The position numbers and the translations under genes are program-made. The notes beneath the pieces were generated by a model. That model saw only the letters and a program-made list of their open reading frames with translations, made no database searches and was not told where the DNA came from. From Candidatus Woesearchaeota archaeon (GTDB lineage Archaea; Nanobdellota; Nanobdellia; Pacearchaeales; GW2011-AR1): a DNA stretch of 64,000 bases. The DNA is taken from positions 212 to 64,211 of the forward strand of contig CAZTCF010000002.1 in NCBI GenBank assembly GCA_964612685.1, in the 5' to 3' direction. Shown piece by piece: positions 23,848-40,080 of this stretch (within the stretch, counting starts at the first letter, position 1; each line of letters starts with the position of its first letter).

Positions 23848-23860
23848 ATAATTAATTTAG

Positions 23861-23903
23861 AACTTATCCCTCTTCCCATACCTCGTATGCAGCAACTTCT
23901 TCA
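23861..23903 (-). repeat. Copy 1 of a conserved 3-prime-end element (consensus on + strand about aattaatt...T(A/C)TCCCTCTTCCCATAC(C/T)T(C/T)GTATGCAGCA(A/G)CTT)
   Basis: Lies directly after the TGA stop of the 23901..25100 gene, in the 53-nt gap between convergent genes. Confidence 0.8.
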
Positions 23904-25100
23904 GAACCTCTCCCTCAACACAAACGCCAATATAACAAACCCCGCAACTATCGCAATACCTATTATTAAACTAGGTAAAAGCAAATTATTTTTTAGATTA
24001 GATTCCTGTTCAGAAGTAACTTCTCCAGTAATTGTAGGTTTATTTCCAGGAGGTATTTGAATTGGAGTTGATTCAGTTGTAACTTTTGTATTTGTATATT
24101 CTGTAGTTTCTGTATATTCTTCAGTTTCAGGAGGTTCTTCTTGAATTAATATTTTCTGTTTTTGAGGCTCTGGTAATGAGGTTATATAAAATAAATCTAA
24201 CCCCTCTGTAGCAGTTGTTCCAGAAGTTCTATCCCTTGCACTTCTAGAAAACTTAACCATTACATTGATTCCTGCAGATTGCCTAATATTAGTTGCTGCT
24301 TCTATCAATTCATTTCCTATTATGACTCCAATTTCTATATTTGAAGATTTTATGTATTCTATTATCTTTGAAGGAGCATTATCTTCTTCTATAAGGATAA
24401 GTACGTTTTTTCCCTGCATTATTTCTTTTTCTATAAATTCTCCACTGCTTAAAATTACTTGAGCTATTGAACCAACTTTTTCGTATTTTTTTACAATTTC
24501 TATATTATTTTCAAATTTATCTCCAGTATCTATTCTTTCTGGATTGTATTTGGATAATTGGTTTGTAATTTCCGGATCAAGATATCCATAAATAAGCAAG
24601 TTATTTACATTTCTGCTTGAGAGTATTGTATCTATTTCATTTATATTATCTTTATTTGCTAAGAATACCCAGGAGTTTGTTTCAAAAGCATAAGCAACTA
24701 CTGCCATTGCATTATATCCATAAGAATCTTCAACAACAATGAAATTTTTTATTCCATATAATTCCTCAATAAGATCCAAGTTTGCTGAAGAAACATCTAT
24801 CTCCTCGACTGAATTAAAACCATTTGAAATTGCTAATGAAGAATAATCTTGAATAATTGGATTATATCTTGAGGTGATAATTAGTAAATCATAATCTTTA
24901 TCTATATCTTGGAGTAAAGCTAATCCATTATCCGAATTAACTAAAAAATCTGAATCTAACCCCATAAAATTTGAATATAATATTGAAGAATAAACATCCC
25001 TCCAATCTGCTGAATTTGAAATAACATAATTCTCTGCACTAACAAAGTTTAAGGTAAAAAGTATAAATAAGAAAGGGATAATCATTAACTTATTTTTCAT
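23901..25100 (-). CDS. Secreted protein with N-terminal signal peptide, Thr/Glu/Pro-rich linker and C-terminal TM anchor. Ends ...LRERF
   Basis: MKNKLMIIPFLFILFTLNFVSAENYV signal. C-terminus LLLPSLIIGIAIVAGFVILAFVLRERF. Confidence 0.55.
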   Translation of the reverse strand: MKNKLMIIPFLFILFTLNFVSAENYVISNSADWRDVYSSILYSNFMGLDSDFLVNSDNGLALLQDIDKDYDLLIITSRYNPIIQDYSSLAISNGFNSVEEIDVSSANLDLIEELYGIKNFIVVEDSYGYNAMAVVAYAFETNSWVFLANKDNINEIDTILSSRNVNNLLIYGYLDPEITNQLSKYNPERIDTGDKFENNIEIVKKYEKVGSIAQVILSSGEFIEKEIMQGKNVLILIEEDNAPSKIIEYIKSSNIEIGVIIGNELIEAATNIRQSAGINVMVKFSRSARDRTSGTTATEGLDLFYITSLPEPQKQKILIQEEPPETEEYTETTEYTNTKVTTESTPIQIPPGNKPTITGEVTSEQESNLKNNLLLPSLIIGIAIVAGFVILAFVLRERF

Positions 25101-25217
25101 ATTCTTTTTAATATAAAGAATTATTTAAGGTTTATTGCAGTTAAAAAAGTCTCTTTCTAAAACCTCTCCTCTCCCCACAACAACAATCCTTAAAAATGGT
25201 TTTGGTATGATTTTTCT

Positions 25218-25415: not shown

Positions 25416-25485
25416 TTATTATTTTTAAGTCATCTAACTCATTTTAAAATAATGGAATTGCTGTGATAGATAATTTAATTTCTTA

Positions 25486-25530
25486 GAATTTATCCCTCTT
25501 CCCATACTTTGTATGCAGCAGCTTTTCTTA
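25486..25530 (-). repeat. Copy 2 of the conserved 3-prime-end element
   Basis: gaatttatccctcttcccatactttgtatgcagcagcttttctta lies directly after the serpin TAA stop (25535) and is preceded by gataatttaattt, as in copy 1. Confidence 0.8.
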
Positions 25531-25534
25531 AAAT

Positions 25535-27133
25535 TTATCTGGGATCAACAACTTTTCCAATGAACAGAATATTTCCAGTTTCCTTTTCCTGAATTATAAA
25601 TATAAACGGATGATCTGCCCTAAACTCTATAAATCTTGGCATTGCAGCTCCAAAACCCATACTGACTATAGTTGCTGCAGCTGCTTCTGTGCCTTCTTCA
25701 TAAACATCAATGTAAGCCTTGTGCAGGACTTCATCAATGTAAAGCATTTCTGTTCCATCTATTCCTGAAAAATCTGCACCTGGCCAGACAAAAGGAAGGC
25801 TCATCCCCATACTTTTTAGATAATCTGTTAATGAATAAGTTGTTTCAAAATGATATTTTGGAAGATAAATAAAAACTATTTCAGGTTCCATTTCGCTTCT
25901 CCACTCCTTGAGTTTTTCTTCACTTAAAATTGATTCTAAGTGTGTAATGTTGCTGAGAGAGAGGTTTTCATTTAATCCAAATTCATATTTATAGTAATTG
26001 TATTCATCATCTTCAGAAGCTTCTGTTCTTGGAAGAAGTACTAGCATGGATATTTTGTCTCCCTTATAAGGCATTTCAAGTATCTGAATTCCATCAGATT
26101 CGCAGTAGTTGAATTTCAATTCATCATCCCTAAGTTGCATCGTAGGAATTTGTACTTTTTTACCTGATTCAAGAGTAAAATCTTTTTGTTTTGTATCTTT
26201 TTTATCAAACTGATGTTCCCACTTTCCTTTGAAATAAATAGCATTAGTCAGAACAGCGCGTGTTAAAGGATCAAACATGTTAGGAGAAGCTATATTCTTT
26301 ATTTTATTGTTTGTATTCTTTGAGACCCAATTATTTATTTCAGAACTTGCTTGCCCGGGATTTTTTACAAAATCAAGAGTATTAACGTTTCCTAGATAAT
26401 ACCTGCTTATTGTATCTTTGTACTCCTGTAAAAAAGGATAATCTTCCTGTAACCAGATTGCATTTGCTGTACTTAATTGGTATTTTCCTCCTCCTTTATT
26501 TATTGTGTTTAACATATTTGCATAAGAAGATCTTCTTAAAGAATCCTCTTCAGGGAAATAGAATACATTTTGGATTTCATTAGCTGTTTCTCCTCTGGCC
26601 CCTTCATATACCATTGCCATTGCGTTCGATATACTCCATGGAGAAAAAAAGATATTTCCTTCAGAATCATCTTTTATTTTAGAATATAAATCAATAGAAA
26701 ACTGATTGTTCGCTCTTACTGCCTCTTCTACTCCTTCTGCTGTTGCTCCTCTATCATCTGCAGCTTTAACAAAAATATCACTCATTCCAAGATTAAAAAA
26801 ACTATACAACAAAATTCCTATTAATATTATTAAACTTAAAACAATCAATTTCTTTTTATTCCAGTTTATCTTGTTTTCGAGGATCCCAAAAAATGCAATT
26901 AAGCTACAAGAAATAAGATAAAACCAAAGAATATCTAATATTAATCCAAGAAGCATTCCAATTATTCCAAACATGCCAAAGAAAAATATAGGAAATATCA
27001 TTATATATAATATAATAAGGGGTATTTTTGTCAACCCCGTACTTTCAGATTTGAAAAACAAAAAAACCGCAAAAGCCAAAAGAAGAATTGTCAAAGCTAT
27101 TTTTTTCCAGTTACATTTAAAGAATTCACCCAT
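25535..27133 (-). CDS. Serpin (inhibitory-type serine protease inhibitor) fused to an N-terminal polytopic membrane domain (about 3-4 TM helices)
   Basis: Serpin core motifs NAIYFKGKWEHQFDKKDT, a hinge/RCL EEGTEAAAATIVSMGFGAAMPRF and a C-terminal FRADHPFIFIIQEKETGNILFIGKVVDP. The N-terminal 120 aa is strongly hydrophobic (IALTILLLAFAVFLFF, IPLIILYIMIFPIFFFGMFGIIGMLLGLIL, LIVLSLIILIGILLYSFF). Confidence 0.8.
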   Translation of the reverse strand: MGEFFKCNWKKIALTILLLAFAVFLFFKSESTGLTKIPLIILYIMIFPIFFFGMFGIIGMLLGLILDILWFYLISCSLIAFFGILENKINWNKKKLIVLSLIILIGILLYSFFNLGMSDIFVKAADDRGATAEGVEEAVRANNQFSIDLYSKIKDDSEGNIFFSPWSISNAMAMVYEGARGETANEIQNVFYFPEEDSLRRSSYANMLNTINKGGGKYQLSTANAIWLQEDYPFLQEYKDTISRYYLGNVNTLDFVKNPGQASSEINNWVSKNTNNKIKNIASPNMFDPLTRAVLTNAIYFKGKWEHQFDKKDTKQKDFTLESGKKVQIPTMQLRDDELKFNYCESDGIQILEMPYKGDKISMLVLLPRTEASEDDEYNYYKYEFGLNENLSLSNITHLESILSEEKLKEWRSEMEPEIVFIYLPKYHFETTYSLTDYLKSMGMSLPFVWPGADFSGIDGTEMLYIDEVLHKAYIDVYEEGTEAAAATIVSMGFGAAMPRFIEFRADHPFIFIIQEKETGNILFIGKVVDPR

Positions 27134-27214: not shown

Positions 27215-27260
27215 CTAAAACCTCTCCCTCTTCCCATACTTCGTATGCAGCAACTTTTCT
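27215..27260 (-). repeat. Copy 3 of the conserved 3-prime-end element, here inside the coding 3-prime end of hydA (encodes ...LLHTKYGKRERF*)
   Basis: cctctccctcttcccatacttcgtatgcagcaacttttctgc with aattaatt upstream. About 90% identical to copies 1 and 2 over about 35 nt. Confidence 0.8.
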
Positions 27261-28921
27261 GCTTTCTTGCTAAGTGGCTGTCCTAGATACTTCTTGTAAA
27301 TATCTTTCACAATTGGATTTTCATGAGAACGTCTGTATTCACGCATACTGTCTTGCTTGTAAAGTGCTTGAGCTCTAAGTGTTAGCACTTTATCATCAGA
27401 GTATATTGGTTGTCCTCCTCCACCCACACATCCTCCAGGACAAGCCATCATTTCAATGAAATCATATTTGTCTTTATTTCTTAGAAGCTTTCTTATATTT
27501 GCTCCTCCAGACGCTGTAGCATAACGTATTTTTCTTCCATTAAGCATTATTGTCCCCTCTCTTATACTGCTATCTTTTGTTCTTAGATTTTGAAATTCAA
27601 CTTTTTCGAGACGTTTTTTTGTTGAGAGTTCATATGCTGTTCTTAATGCAGCTTCCATAACCCCTCCAGCTGCCCCAAAAATATCTCCTGCCCCACTTGC
27701 TAATCCCAGTGTTGGATCAAAATTGGAATCTTCTAGATTTGCAAAATCAATATTTTTTTGTTTTATTAATCTTCCAAGCTCTCTTGTTGTTAAAACATAA
27801 TCAACTCCTGTTTCTAATTCTGGTCTTGTTGACTCAAACTTCTTTGCTGTACATGGCATTATGCTCACCACGATTATATCCTTAGGATTAATCTTTGCAA
27901 GTTCTGCATAATAACTTTTTATTAACATCCCAGACATTTCATGAGGAGATTTACATGTTGACATATTAGGTATTAATTCTGGATAAAAGAATTCCATCAT
28001 TAATATCCAAGATGGACAGCAAGTTGTAATTAAAGGAAGCACTGCTTTTTTCCCCTGTTTCAATCTTTTAAGAAGTTCAGCTGATTCTTCCATTATTGTC
28101 ATATCTGCTCCTAAGTCAACATCAAAAACTTTATTGAAACCACATTTCTTTAAAGCAGAAACCATTTTTCCTGTAACTAAAGTTCCTGCAGGCATATCAA
28201 ATAATTCTCCTAGGCTTGCCCTTACTGCAGGAGCTGTCTGAGCTACAACATGCTTTTTAGGATTGTTTAATGCTTTGATAACTTCAGGAAGATGTGTACG
28301 TTCACTTATAGCCCCAACAGGACAATTAATTAAACACTGTCCACATTCAATACATGCAACATCTTCTAATTTCTTTTCATCGTATGGGGTTACATGTTCA
28401 TTATGAGCTCTACTTGAAAAGTCAATAGCATATATTTCTTGAATTTTACCACACACCTGAACACATTTACCACAATTAATACATTTATTGTTGTCTCTTA
28501 TTATTGCAGCACCTAAATCTGGATGATAATCTTTAATTGATTTGAATCTTTCATATTCAATTCCAATCTGGTCATACACTTCCTTTGCTTCAAAATCCCC
28601 TCCTAATTCTTTATATTCGATATCTGGACTCATTAATTCAAGATTGATTTTTCTTGATTTGATTATTTTTTCAGAATTAGTTACAATTACTGCATTCTCA
28701 ATAGGCTTTGTTGAACAAGACGTAACTAATTTTCCATTCATCTCAACTAAACACACCCTACATCTTGCTTCAGGAAAAAGATTTTTGTGGAAGCAGAGGG
28801 TTGGAATTTTGATATCGTTTTCTTTACAAATTGTTAAAATTGTTTTATTTGGGTCCACATCAAGTTGTTTGTTGTCTAGGGTTATTTTCATTTTAATGTT
28901 TGTAAAACTCTCCTTGCCCAT
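27215..28921 (-). CDS. hydA: [FeFe]-hydrogenase catalytic subunit HydA, multi-cluster form (N-terminal 2Fe-2S + His-ligated 4Fe-4S + 2x4Fe-4S + H-cluster domain)
   Basis: H-cluster motifs L1 ITTCCPSW, L2 IMPCTAKKFE and L3 IEMMACPGGCVGGGGQP. N-terminal plant-ferredoxin-like C-x11-C-x2-C...C, NuoG-like H-x3-C-x2-C-x5-C (HPDLG...CINCGKCVQVC), and CIECGQCLINCP ferredoxin motif. Confidence 0.85.
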   Translation of the reverse strand: MGKESFTNIKMKITLDNKQLDVDPNKTILTICKENDIKIPTLCFHKNLFPEARCRVCLVEMNGKLVTSCSTKPIENAVIVTNSEKIIKSRKINLELMSPDIEYKELGGDFEAKEVYDQIGIEYERFKSIKDYHPDLGAAIIRDNNKCINCGKCVQVCGKIQEIYAIDFSSRAHNEHVTPYDEKKLEDVACIECGQCLINCPVGAISERTHLPEVIKALNNPKKHVVAQTAPAVRASLGELFDMPAGTLVTGKMVSALKKCGFNKVFDVDLGADMTIMEESAELLKRLKQGKKAVLPLITTCCPSWILMMEFFYPELIPNMSTCKSPHEMSGMLIKSYYAELAKINPKDIIVVSIMPCTAKKFESTRPELETGVDYVLTTRELGRLIKQKNIDFANLEDSNFDPTLGLASGAGDIFGAAGGVMEAALRTAYELSTKKRLEKVEFQNLRTKDSSIREGTIMLNGRKIRYATASGGANIRKLLRNKDKYDFIEMMACPGGCVGGGGQPIYSDDKVLTLRAQALYKQDSMREYRRSHENPIVKDIYKKYLGQPLSKKAEKLLHTKYGKRERF

Positions 28922-29106
28922 TTTCTATCAGACTCTTTTTCTTTTTCAGATAATTTTGAATAAGGTTGTTTTATTTGTTTTTTCCATCTTTCTATATTTT
29001 CTTTTGTAAGATTCTTAAGCATATAATTAGTCCAGTGGGCCCATTGCTTATGTTCTAGATTAGCTAACTTTTCTATTAACGTTTTATCTTCTTGATTTAT
29101 TTTCAT
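28888..29106 (-). CDS. Small Trp/Lys/Glu-rich protein (72 aa from MKINQEDKTL...) encoded between hydB and hydA, translationally coupled
   Basis: ATG at 29106..29104 overlaps the hydB TGA stop (29105..29103) as ATGA. Its 3-prime end overlaps the hydA start by 34 nt. The track's longer 28888..29190 ORF extends into the hydB coding region. Confidence 0.4.
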   Translation of the reverse strand: MKINQEDKTLIEKLANLEHKQWAHWTNYMLKNLTKENIERWKKQIKQPYSKLSEKEKESDRKWARRVLQTLK

Positions 29107-39977: not shown

Positions 39978-39980
39978 AAT

Positions 39981-40080
39981 AGCCCCACCAGGATTCGAAC
40001 CTGGGTCCCGGCCTCTCTTCATCTTATCTATTTTCAAGATACCAAAGGGCCGTATACTTGACCACTGTACTATGGGGCTA
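39981..40080 (-). tRNA. tRNA-Gln (anticodon TTG) containing a 27-nt intron at the canonical 37/38 position
   Basis: Minus strand AGCCCCA-TA-GTAC-AGTGGTCAA-GTAT-A-CGGCC-CTTTGG[TATCTTGAAAATAGATAAGATGAAGAG]A-GGCCG-GGAC-CCAGG-TTCGAAT-CCTGG-TGGGGCT-A. The exons give a 73-nt cloverleaf with archaeal A1-U72. Confidence 0.7.

What the first reader, a model, noticed from the sequence alone, without database searches (positions are those of the whole stretch)
25535..27133. Inhibitory-type serpin fused to an N-terminal polytopic membrane domain
The C-terminal 410 aa has canonical serpin features, including the hinge EEGTEAAAAT and the C-terminal FRADHPFIF...G.V..P block, so it should be a functional suicide inhibitor. 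The first 120 aa form 3-4 TM helices. Serpins are normally soluble or secreted, so a membrane-tethered serpin would sit at the cell surface. In a putative host-dependent DPANN archaeon it could protect the cell or its surface appendages from host or environmental proteases. It is flanked by the conserved 3-prime elements and by other surface protein genes
Basis: partly seen in the sequence, partly recalled or inferred. Interest (0 to 1): 0.65.

Follow-up and report, generated by a model that had tools for sequence, protein, structure and literature searches.

The report
Surface-tethered serpin on DPANN membrane module
A small DPANN-type archaeon encodes an otherwise ordinary protease-trapping serpin joined to an undescribed small membrane module, which these archaea also encode on its own and in front of other surface proteins; the serpin is a known kind, the anchor is the new part.

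Summary
The ORF at 25535..27133 (minus strand, 532 aa) is real. Residues 141-531 are a full-length serpin (Pfam E 1.6e-115; AF2 model matches solved serpins at TM about 0.9) with an invariant inhibitory-type hinge, EEGTEAAAAT. By canonical counting the scissile bond is Gly495-Ala496.

The N-terminal 120 aa are neither a long signal peptide nor a mis-called start. About 50 protein clusters, mostly DPANN archaea, share the architecture, and 46 of them form one clade.

New here: residues 1-92 belong to an unannotated small-membrane-protein family (356 representatives, no Pfam, NCBIfam or PDB match). It occurs mostly standalone at about 95 aa, sometimes in tandem, and sometimes in front of one more TM helix plus a non-serpin ectodomain. 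Helix 4 aligns with the signal anchor of the nearest single-anchor DPANN serpins. Charge distribution and fusion patterns put both ends of the module in the cytoplasm and the serpin outside; this is inferred, not shown.

No protease partner is genomically linked, so the target is unknown.

The gene, with its own upstream region, sits in an insertion hotspot at the 3' end of an [FeFe]-hydrogenase gene, flanked by duplicated copies of that gene's last 45 nt.

Verdict: new variant of a known kind, moderate interest.

The parts
25535..27133 (-). Complete ORF of 532 aa: module, signal-anchor helix and serpin. The stop codon is at 25535-25537.
   Evidence: an identical protein is in the public collection as P0001
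27134..27171 (-). AT-rich upstream region that travels with the gene. It is probably an archaeal promoter for a leaderless or short-leader mRNA (inference).
   Evidence: DNA homology with the 82%-identical gene in L001 starts 38 nt upstream of the ATG; sequence read
26858..27133 (-). Residues 1-92: conserved small-membrane-protein module. It consists of an N-terminal basic motif (MGEFFKCNWKK), helix 1, a Pro-kinked helix 2, helix 3 with W..Y..SC, and a basic tail.
   Evidence: The A3 profile finds 356 representatives, mostly standalone proteins of 90-110 aa matching profile positions 2-90. An HMM built only from standalone proteins hits this ORF at E = 4e-15. No Pfam, NCBIfam or PDB match.
27041..27109 (-). 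Helix 1 (residues 9-31), predicted transmembrane, running in to out
   Evidence: the N-tail carries a mean of 3.4 K/R in the family
26969..27028 (-). Helix 2 (residues 36-55), broken at the nearly invariant Pro48. It is probably a re-entrant or outer-leaflet element rather than a full span (inference).
   Evidence: DSSP break at residue 46. Pro is at least 90% conserved. This region is a full hydrophobic segment in only 66 of 117 standalone members and is net acidic.
26870..26965 (-). Helix 3 (residues 57-88) with invariant Tyr72 and nearly invariant Cys76. Predicted transmembrane, running out to in.
26849..26878 (-). Basic loop ENKINWNKKK (residues 86-95). It is the predicted cytoplasmic n-region of the signal anchor.
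   Evidence: mean 4.6 K/R in the family
26789..26857 (-). Helix 4 (residues 93-115). It is a signal-anchor helix equivalent to the single N-terminal anchor of the nearest DPANN serpins.
   Evidence: single anchors align with it; the flank after it is acidic, 4.2 D/E against 1.3 K/R
26714..26788 (-). Linker (residues 116-140) containing the conserved ADD(R/S)GAT motif shared with single-anchor relatives
25541..26713 (-). Serpin domain (residues 141-531)
   Evidence: Pfam E = 1.6e-115; PDB sequence hits; Foldseek target-normalised TM 0.85-0.92 to solved serpins
25952..26029 (-). Lineage-variable insertion after strand s3A (residues 369-394), modelled with low confidence. It contains the protein's only two N-x-S/T sequons.
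25670..25699 (-). RCL hinge P17-P8, EEGTEAAAAT (residues 479-488)
   Evidence: invariant or nearly so in 66 aligned sequences
25631..25669 (-). Hypervariable RCL P7-P6', IVSMGFG|AAMPRF (residues 489-501). The scissile bond inferred by canonical counting is Gly495-Ala496 (window 25646-25651).
   Evidence: pLDDT below 50 for residues 483-499
27215..27259 (-). Copy A: the functional 3' end of the [FeFe]-hydrogenase gene (..EKLLHTKYGKRERF*). It forms the upstream boundary of the serpin insert.
25483..25527 (-). Copy B: a duplicate of the hydrogenase 3' end (EKLLHTKYGKRDKF*) starting 7 nt after the serpin stop codon. It forms the downstream boundary of the serpin insert.
23857..23901 (-). Copy C: a duplicate of the hydrogenase 3' end (KKLLHTRYGKRDKF*) abutting the stop codon of the 399-aa surface-protein gene

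Best explanation
The gene encodes an inhibitory-type serpin displayed on the outside of the cell membrane of a DPANN (Nanobdellota-like) archaeon.

The protein has three parts:
1. Residues 1-92 are a widespread, unannotated DPANN small-membrane-protein module. I read it as a hairpin with both ends in the cytoplasm: TM1, an outer re-entrant or kinked helix 2, then TM3.
2. Residues 93-115 are a signal-anchor helix preceded by a Lys-rich cytoplasmic loop. It carries the chain from inside to outside.
3. Residues 116-532 are a linker and a serpin domain, located outside the cell.

The fusion arose essentially once, when the module was placed in front of an already signal-anchored DPANN serpin.

Outside the cell, the exposed reactive-centre loop (P4-P1' = M-G-F-G|A) acts as bait. 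A protease that cleaves it would be trapped as a covalent acyl-enzyme while the loop inserts into beta-sheet A, the standard serpin mechanism. The dead protease would stay held at the cell surface.

The module most likely anchors, positions or clusters its cargo, because the same module-TM-cargo layout carries other ectodomains.

What is shown and what is inferred:
- Shown by computation: serpin identity and fold, hinge conservation, conservation and distribution of the module, and the composite architecture.
- Inferred: the topology, inhibitory activity, the target protease and the role of the module.
For: Serpin identity:
- Pfam E = 1.6e-115 over the full model.
- 201 PDB serpin sequences match.
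- The AF2 model has mean pLDDT 86 and target-normalised TM 0.85-0.92 to solved serpins.

Inhibitory type:
- P17-P8 (EEGTEAAAAT) is invariant or nearly so in 66 sequences, while P7-P6' is hypervariable.
- The RCL is modelled as disordered, consistent with an exposed loop.
- The NIFFSPWSIS, FKGKWEHQF, HKAYIDVYEEGTEA and GKVVDP blocks match the shutter, breach and hinge regions of alpha-1-antitrypsin (my own knowledge of that sequence).

Real fusion:
- About 50 clusters from independent assemblies share the architecture.
- 46 of them are monophyletic on the serpin domain alone.

Independent module:
- 356 representatives; 120 of the best 149 are standalone, 13 are tandem and 11 have C-terminal extensions.
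- An independent HMM hits this ORF at E = 4e-15.
- 58 loci in species-representative genomes, mainly Aenigmatarchaeota, Woesearchaeota, Nanoarchaeota and Altiarchaeota.

Topology:
- The loop before helix 4 has 4.6 K/R and the flank after it has 4.2 D/E against 1.3 K/R.
- Helix 4 aligns with the N-terminal anchors of single-anchor relatives, many of which have a lipobox-like L(S/T/V)GC.
- Standalone modules have basic tails at both ends (3.8 and 3.4 K/R) and an acidic middle.
- Tandem arrays keep the same charge pattern in every repeat, which requires an even number of membrane crossings per module.
- Every non-serpin ectodomain-type fusion inserts one extra TM after the module.
- L042 fuses a charged, CxxC-containing tail, of the kind typical of cytoplasmic domains, directly to the module with no extra TM.
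Against: - Sidedness rests on charge bias, secondary-structure lengths and comparative architecture.
- In this particular protein helix 2 is very hydrophobic (Kyte-Doolittle about 2.5) and could be a full span. The serpin would then be outside only if the basic N-terminus were also outside.
- P1 = Gly by canonical counting is unusual for an efficient inhibitor. The true scissile bond may be shifted by a residue.
- No protease gene is adjacent in any of five contexts, and a crude motif scan found none in the window.
- Signal-peptidase cleavage after helix 4 (..FVKA|ADD) cannot be excluded.
Confidence: 0.62

Rival explanations
1. The serpin is exported but then released. Helix 4 acts as an internal cleavable signal sequence, for example cut after ..FVKA|ADD. 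The serpin becomes a soluble secreted inhibitor and the module is left behind in the membrane.
For: V-K-A at positions -3 to -1 before Ala125 fits the small-residue rule for signal peptidase I (sequence; the rule is my own knowledge). Many single-anchor relatives carry lipobox-like motifs at the aligned position, which shows that processing occurs near this site in the wider clade. Standalone modules exist as stable gene products.
Against: The hydrophobic core of helix 4 is about 21 residues, which is anchor-like rather than the 7-15 typical of cleaved signals. The family consensus ..DIFIPTADD lacks a good -3/-1 pair. A conserved 92-aa module would be an expensive leader to discard.
Confidence: 0.15
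2. The serpin faces the cytoplasm. Four true TM helices with the N-terminus inside would place the serpin on the inner face of the membrane, where it would regulate an intracellular or membrane-associated protease.
For: AF2 shows four helices joined by loops of only 3-4 residues, as in an up-down-up-down bundle, which puts the N-terminus and the serpin on the same side. The N-terminus is basic, suggesting it is inside. Spence et al. propose intracellular housekeeping roles for ancestral-like prokaryotic serpins.
Against: This topology would put the most basic loop (4.6 K/R) outside and the acidic flank inside, against the positive-inside rule. It contradicts the homology of helix 4 and the linker with the export signals of the nearest relatives. 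It also contradicts the tandem-repeat and fusion logic of the module.
Confidence: 0.1
3. The serpin is non-inhibitory. The domain has been recruited for another role such as binding, chaperoning or adhesion, and the RCL is not a suicide bait.
For: P1 = Gly is atypical. No protease is linked. A variable insertion near the gate region could be a binding surface.
Against: The hinge is perfectly canonical and under strong purifying selection, while the specificity residues are hypervariable. That is the pattern of inhibitory serpins. Non-inhibitory serpins typically have degenerate hinges (my own knowledge).
Confidence: 0.08
4. Artefact: the N-terminal region belongs to a separate upstream small gene, joined to the serpin by a mis-called start, a frameshift or a mis-assembly.
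For: The module does exist as a separate gene of about 95 aa in many genomes. A few database entries start at helix 4 (P0025, P0036).
Against: The reading frame is continuous with no stop. The same fusion is found in about 50 clusters from NCBI, JGI, ENA and Logan assemblies, and in four further contigs of the same strain, L064-L067 (three carry the full or C-terminally cut serpin gene; in L067 only its first 88 codons are present). The module-to-anchor junction (W-[DN]-x-K-K) is itself conserved.
Confidence: 0.02

Closest known systems
Single-anchor or lipobox-type DPANN serpins (for example P0064 and P0112, annotated 'serpin family protein', Candidatus Woesearchaeota/Pacearchaeota; P0074, Nanohalarchaeota)
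   Same: They are 48-53% identical in the serpin domain, with an identical hinge and the same ADD(S/T)G(A/S)T..ANNQF linker. Their N-terminal hydrophobic anchor aligns with helix 4.
   Different: They lack the 92-aa module and have about 410-430 aa. Many have a lipobox-like Cys that the fusion proteins lack.
Membrane-anchored prokaryotic serpins as classified by Spence et al. 2021 (PMC8233489), for example miropin of Tannerella forsythia (PDB 5ncs)
   Same: Both are prokaryotic serpins held at the cell envelope by an N-terminal targeting sequence. Miropin is a structural match (rank 37).
   Different: Anchoring there is through a signal or lipoprotein peptide. No polytopic or modular membrane domain is described, and the organisms are bacteria of animal microbiota rather than DPANN archaea.
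Chloropin, serpin of Chlorobium limicola (PDB 8gxv)
   Same: It is the best sequence match among solved structures (E = 1.2e-72), with the same hinge (EKGTEAAAAT) and C-terminal block.
   Different: It is a soluble 375-aa protein with P1 = Arg by the same counting. It has no membrane region and no insertion after s3A.
Clade B serpins (SERPINB3/SCCA1 2zv6, PAI-2, MENT, SERPINB1)
   Same: They are among the top sequence and structure hits at 31-36% identity. The G-F-G motif in the RCL recalls SERPINB3's G-F-G-S, which is used against papain-like cysteine proteases (my own knowledge; a lead only).
   Different: They are intracellular or nucleocytoplasmic eukaryotic proteins without signal or TM segments. 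The G-F-G motif is offset by one position.
Characterised archaeal serpins (Tk-serpin of Thermococcus kodakarensis, Pnserpin, aeropin)
   Same: They are archaeal inhibitory serpins that act on subtilisin- and chymotrypsin-like proteases (Spence et al. 2021).
   Different: They come from hyperthermophilic Thermococci or Thermoprotei and have no polytopic N-terminal module. I did not compare the sequences directly here.
Standalone 'KEFLKPDWRKI...WYLLSC...KKK' small membrane proteins of DPANN archaea (for example P0134, P0129, P0136)
   Same: They are homologous to residues 1-92 (HMM E = 4e-15). They share the N-terminal basic motif, the central conserved Pro, the invariant Tyr and Cys in the last helix, and the basic tail.
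   Different: They are 90-110 aa with no cargo. No function or family name exists for them.

Membership tests
Serpin superfamily (Pfam PF00079) | Full-length match to the serpin profile above the curated threshold | tested here: met
   386.7 bits against a cut-off of 27, model positions 2-370 of 370
Serpin superfamily (Pfam PF00079) | Serpin fold | tested here: met
   AF2 mean pLDDT 86; Foldseek E about 1e-36 and target-normalised TM 0.85-0.92 to native serpin structures
Inhibitory serpins | Hinge consensus: P17 Glu, P15 Gly, P14 Thr/Ser, small residues at P12-P9, no Pro or charged residues | tested here: met
   E479-E-G-T-E-A-A-A-A-T488, invariant or nearly so in 66 homologues
Inhibitory serpins | RCL long enough to carry the protease to the far pole of the serpin (17 residues from P17 to P1), and exposed in the native state | tested here: inconclusive
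   Counting gives P1 = Gly495, and the loop is modelled as disordered. The real cleavage site is unknown.
Inhibitory serpins | Conserved shutter and breach residues (alpha-1-antitrypsin Ser53, Ser56, Trp194, His334, Glu342) | tested here: met
   The NIFFSPWSIS, KGKWEHQF and HKAYIDVYEEG blocks are present, and the corresponding columns are invariant in alignment A1: S164, W305, H471, E479. The mapping to alpha-1-antitrypsin numbering is from my own knowledge.
Inhibitory serpins | Forms an SDS-stable covalent complex with a target protease and undergoes the stressed-to-relaxed transition | not testable with these tools
   Needs biochemistry
Membrane-anchored prokaryotic serpins (sensu Spence et al. 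2021) | An N-terminal targeting or anchor sequence that places the serpin at the membrane, outside the cytoplasm | tested here: inconclusive
   Helix 4 has signal-anchor charge asymmetry and aligns with the anchors of relatives. However, it is internal rather than N-terminal, and sidedness is inferred only.
Unnamed DPANN small-membrane-protein module (defined here) | N-terminal K-[EQ]-F-[LF]-K-P-x-x-[KR]-K motif, central conserved Pro, last helix with Y-x-x-S-C, and a basic tail | tested here: met
   This protein has MGEFFKCNWKK, Pro48, Tyr72/Ser75/Cys76 and ENKINWNKKK. The standalone-family HMM gives E = 4e-15.
Integron-like gene cassette (considered for the genomic setting) | Single-gene cassettes each bounded by a recombination site, arrayed next to an integrase gene and an attachment site | tested here: inconclusive
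   Single co-directional genes, each followed by a copy of the hydA 3' end, are seen here and independently in L068. No integrase was seen in the immediate neighbourhood, and no circular or empty-site evidence was obtained. I do not file it as an integron.

The most novel reading that the evidence does not exclude
The 92-aa N-terminal module is a dedicated DPANN surface-display or sorting device. Its invariant cytoplasmic N-terminal motif and the W..Y..SC helix face would be recognised by, or would self-assemble into, a membrane platform, possibly at the host-contact site. Cargo ectodomains such as the serpin, DUF6438 and Cys-rich domains would be plugged in through one extra TM helix, and the abundant standalone copies would be the platform's structural subunits. 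On this reading the serpin is a protease shield built into that platform, and it is itself a mobile cargo gene captured at an insertion hotspot in the 3' end of hydA.
Probability: 0.15. Interest if true: 0.75.

Novelty: new variant of a known kind. Interest (0 to 1): 0.5.

Why it matters
Prokaryotic serpins are rare and their roles are largely unknown (Spence et al. 2021). The held literature does not discuss DPANN serpins at all.

This work shows that a sizeable DPANN clade has fixed a serpin to the membrane through a conserved module. The same module is multi-copy and widespread in DPANN genomes, yet has no family annotation.

That provides three things:
1. A concrete, testable candidate for how ultra-small, host-attached archaea protect or regulate their surface proteome.
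2. A handle, in the form of a sequence profile, on an unstudied family of small membrane proteins that appears to serve as a general anchor for surface cargo.
3. A natural example of a membrane-integrated serpin, which could be useful for surface-display engineering.

The finding does not change our understanding of how serpins work.

Tried and rejected
- The word-indexed homologue search with the N-domain profile returned only one fragment and missed even the known family members, so it was swamped by hydrophobic words. The exhaustive HMMER search replaced it.
- Pfam and NCBIfam scans of the module and of standalone members gave only noise-level hits.
- The cluster look-up gave no names or organisms for the standalone proteins. 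The genome-collection scan supplied the taxonomy instead.
- I looked for a linked protease. There is no conserved neighbour in L001, L061, L062, L063 or the window, and a motif scan for subtilisin, trypsin, papain and HExxH signatures in window ORFs of at least 150 aa found nothing.
- I looked for an empty insertion site. All contigs carrying the identical HydA also carry the serpin, and the exact-pattern scan of metagenome contigs for the repeat core found nothing.
- I looked for flanking duplications around the 82%-identical serpin in L001 and found none.
- A long signal peptide or misplaced start is rejected, because the N-terminal motif and all four helices are conserved in about 50 clusters.
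- A palindrome in the repeat (CATAC-GAA-GTATG) was considered as an attC-like hairpin. It was dropped because it is not conserved in the L068 copies.
Full report
**Observation**

The window is AT-rich, at about 31% GC throughout. An uninterrupted ATG-initiated ORF of 532 codons lies at 25535..27133 on the minus strand. Pfam matches the Serpin model end to end (residues 141-531, E = 1.6e-115). Two hundred and one distinct PDB serpin sequences match; the best is chloropin 8gxv at E = 1.2e-72.

Residues 1-120 contain four strongly hydrophobic stretches.

**Serpin domain**

An AlphaFold2 model built on a 66-sequence alignment is confident (mean pLDDT 86). It superposes on native serpin structures with target-normalised TM-scores of 0.85-0.92. 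The reactive-centre loop (residues 483-499) is the only long stretch with pLDDT below 50, as expected for an exposed, flexible bait loop.

Across 47 full-length and 19 shorter homologues the hinge P17-P8 is invariant or nearly so. P7-P6' is hypervariable. Purifying selection on the insertion hinge combined with diversification of specificity residues is the pattern of working inhibitors.

Canonical counting of 17 residues from Glu479 puts the scissile bond at Gly495-Ala496, with Phe at P2 and Met at P4. Gly is the commonest P1 in the family (28 of 47). This rules out a trypsin-like target. It is compatible with subtilisin- or elastase-like enzymes. It is also compatible with papain-like cysteine proteases, which read P2; the G-F-G motif recalls SERPINB3, but this comes from memory and is a lead only.

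A variable insertion of 17-31 residues after strand s3A is present in about two-thirds of the family. It is absent from the single-anchor relatives.

**The N-terminal region is real and composite**

About 50 clusters of 510-556 aa, at 50-85% identity, cover 99-100% of the query. Where they are named they come from DPANN lineages: Nanobdellota, Woesearchaeota, Diapherotrites and Micrarchaeota, plus one 'Lokiarchaeota' bin. All start with the same motif (M-x-K-E-F-F-K-P-N-W-K-K) and share a G-(F/L)-P kink, an I-L-W-L-Y-x-x-S-C helix, a W-(D/N)-x-K-K loop and a Y-G-F-F-N-x-G-W-G-D...A-D-D-S-G-A-T junction. This excludes a mis-called start or a long signal peptide.

The next-best homologues are about 410-430 aa and 48-53% identical. 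They have a single N-terminal hydrophobic segment followed by the same ADD..GAT..ANNQF linker. In the joint alignment that segment aligns with helix 4 of the fusion proteins, and many of these relatives carry a lipobox-like L(S/T/V)GC.

A profile of residues 1-122 was searched exhaustively against 1.84 billion representatives and found 356 proteins at E <= 1e-3. Most are proteins of 90-110 aa that match only profile positions 2-90. An HMM built solely from those small proteins hits the serpin ORF at E = 4e-15 and hits no other ORF in the window.

Residues 1-92 are therefore a pre-existing small-membrane-protein module. Helix 4 (residues 93-115) is the serpin's own signal anchor.

**The module**

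Pfam and NCBIfam do not recognise it, and a Foldseek search of a module-only AF2 model against the PDB finds nothing.

Architectures among the 149 best representatives:
- 120 single standalone modules
- 13 tandem arrays of up to four repeats
- 11 with C-terminal extensions
- 4 with N-terminal extensions
- 1 without a full module

In species-representative genomes it was found at 58 loci. These are mainly in Aenigmatarchaeota, Woesearchaeota, Nanoarchaeota and Altiarchaeota, with a few in bins labelled Patescibacteria. It is often multi-copy, with up to five loci in one MAG.

In every non-serpin C-terminal extension, the module's Lys-rich tail is followed at once by a hydrophobic helix and then a polar, often Cys-rich domain; one of these is DUF6438. 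In L042 a highly charged tail containing CxxC motifs follows the module directly, with no extra helix.

**Topology (inferred)**

AF2 gives helices 9-31, 36-45/47-55, 57-88 and 93-115, joined by loops of 1-4 residues.

Mean K/R counts across the serpin fusion family:
- N-terminal tail: 3.4
- Loop between helices 1 and 2: 0.6
- Loop between helices 2 and 3: 0.1
- Loop before helix 4: 4.6
- Flank after helix 4: 1.3, with 4.2 D/E

Standalone modules have basic tails at both ends (3.8 and 3.4 K/R) and a net-acidic middle. That middle region is a full hydrophobic segment in only 66 of 117 members. It is centred on a nearly invariant Pro.

Tandem arrays repeat the same charge pattern, which requires an even number of membrane crossings per module.

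The simplest model consistent with all of this is as follows:
1. The N-terminus is inside.
2. TM1 crosses to the outside.
3. Helix 2 is an outer re-entrant or kinked element.
4. TM3 crosses back in, followed by a basic cytoplasmic loop.
5. TM4 crosses out, and the serpin lies outside.

A four-span model with the N-terminus outside also puts the serpin outside. Only a four-span model with the N-terminus inside puts the serpin in the cytoplasm, and that places the most basic loop outside. I estimate roughly 85% that the serpin is extracytoplasmic. Whether it remains tethered or is cleaved after helix 4 is open; the 21-residue hydrophobic core argues for an anchor.

**Evolution and genomic setting**

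A neighbour-joining tree on serpin-domain columns alone places 46 module-bearing serpins in a single clade. P0063 has a genuine module but a serpin domain and linker of the single-anchor type, so it is a probable recombinant. P0097 merely has a long cytoplasmic extension before a single TM. The fusion therefore arose essentially once.

The gene has no conserved neighbours. Five contexts differ completely and none contains a protease.

In this window the serpin follows a NuoF-like gene and an [FeFe]-hydrogenase HydA-like gene. The last 45 nt of hydA (..EKLLHTKYGKRERF*) are repeated, still translatable, 7 nt after the serpin stop (EKLLHTKYGKRDKF*). They are repeated again abutting the stop of the next gene, a 399-aa surface protein (KKLLHTRYGKRDKF*). 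These are the only three copies in the window, and none is expected by chance.

DNA homology with the 82%-identical serpin gene of a Nanobdellota MAG runs from 38 nt upstream of the ATG to 3 nt past the stop. It ends exactly where the repeat begins.

HydA relatives at 75-84% identity keep NuoF-HydA but have unrelated downstream DNA. One of them, L068, has its own triple copy of its HydA tail, bracketing two different single genes. The relatives' hydA genes end in ..DKF*, like copies B and C. The present ..ERF* end therefore looks imported.

The serpin is thus a self-contained gene, with its own upstream region, sitting in a recurrent insertion hotspot. The mechanism is unresolved.

**Comparison with what is known**

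Mechanistically the domain is a standard inhibitory serpin. Membrane-anchored prokaryotic serpins are an acknowledged class, defined by signal peptides (Spence et al. 2021). The held literature describes no transmembrane or polytopic serpin and does not discuss DPANN serpins. NCBI already annotates several family members as 'serpin family protein'.

The gene is therefore a member of a known superfamily. The new element is the fusion to an undescribed, widespread DPANN membrane module and the general module-TM-cargo architecture this reveals.

**Verdict**

- Novelty: new variant of a known kind.
- Interest is about 0.5. The serpin alone would rate lower; the module family and the hydA insertion hotspot raise it.

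Noticed in passing
window 27215-27259, 25483-25527, 23857-23901 (minus strand); partial copy at 25157-25170: The last 45 nt of the [FeFe]-hydrogenase gene are present three times, each still translatable. They bracket two single-gene inserts, the serpin and a 399-aa surface protein. The 'ERF*'-type end (GAGAGGTTYTRR) occurs only at 27215, 25157 and 23901, and the 'DKF*'-type end only at 25483 and 23857. This looks like attL/attR-type duplication from repeated insertion into the gene's 3' end. No integrase is nearby, and the order of events is unresolved.
   Followed up: partly
L068:6642-8010 (contig Ga0255342_1000307): A relative with 84%-identical HydA has its own three copies of its HydA tail. 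They bracket a 99-aa ORF and a 203-aa histidine-phosphatase-like ORF, and the last copy spans about 125 nt of hydA coding sequence. The hydA 3' end is therefore a recurrent cassette-like insertion hotspot in this lineage, with different cargo in each genome.
   Followed up: partly
window 23901-25100 (minus strand): A 399-aa ORF with a signal-peptide-like N-terminus, a Thr/Glu/Pro-rich stalk and a C-terminal hydrophobic anchor, and no Pfam match. It is a probable surface protein. Its own last codons (..LRERF*) resemble the imported hydA end.
   Followed up: partly
window 39980-40079 (minus strand): Rfam finds a tRNA of 100 nt (53.8 bits) that ARAGORN does not report. It probably contains an intron, as is common in archaea.
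   Followed up: no
P0063 (522 aa): This protein has a genuine N-terminal module, but its serpin domain and ADDTGST linker group with the single-anchor clade. It is a probable recombinant between the two serpin lineages, with the crossover near the linker.
   Followed up: partly
P0131 (476 aa), P0127 (182 aa), P0125 (389 aa), P0141 (273 aa, DUF6438), L042:2057-2728: The module occurs as arrays of two to four tandem repeats. It is also fused through an extra TM helix to Cys-rich or DUF6438 ectodomains, and once directly to a charged coiled-coil/CxxC tail. It behaves like a portable membrane building block.
   Followed up: partly
L012, L014, L023, L052, L060: A few module loci lie in bins labelled Patescibacteria/CPR (Kazan, Minisyncoccales, Nealsonbacteria). 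Others lie in Dehalococcoidales and Gammaproteobacteria bins. This is either real sharing between DPANN and CPR or mis-binning.
   Followed up: no
window 25952-26029 (serpin residues 369-394): A low-confidence insertion after strand s3A carries the protein's only two N-x-S/T sequons (NLS, NIT). It is highly variable in length (0-31 residues) within the family and could be an exosite or a glycosylated loop.
   Followed up: partly
L064:387-605, L065:2414-2632 (equivalent to window about 28888-29106, minus strand): A 72-aa gene called between the NuoF-like and HydA-like genes, overlapping the start of hydA, has a weak RyR-domain (PF02026) hit in the precomputed annotations.
   Followed up: no
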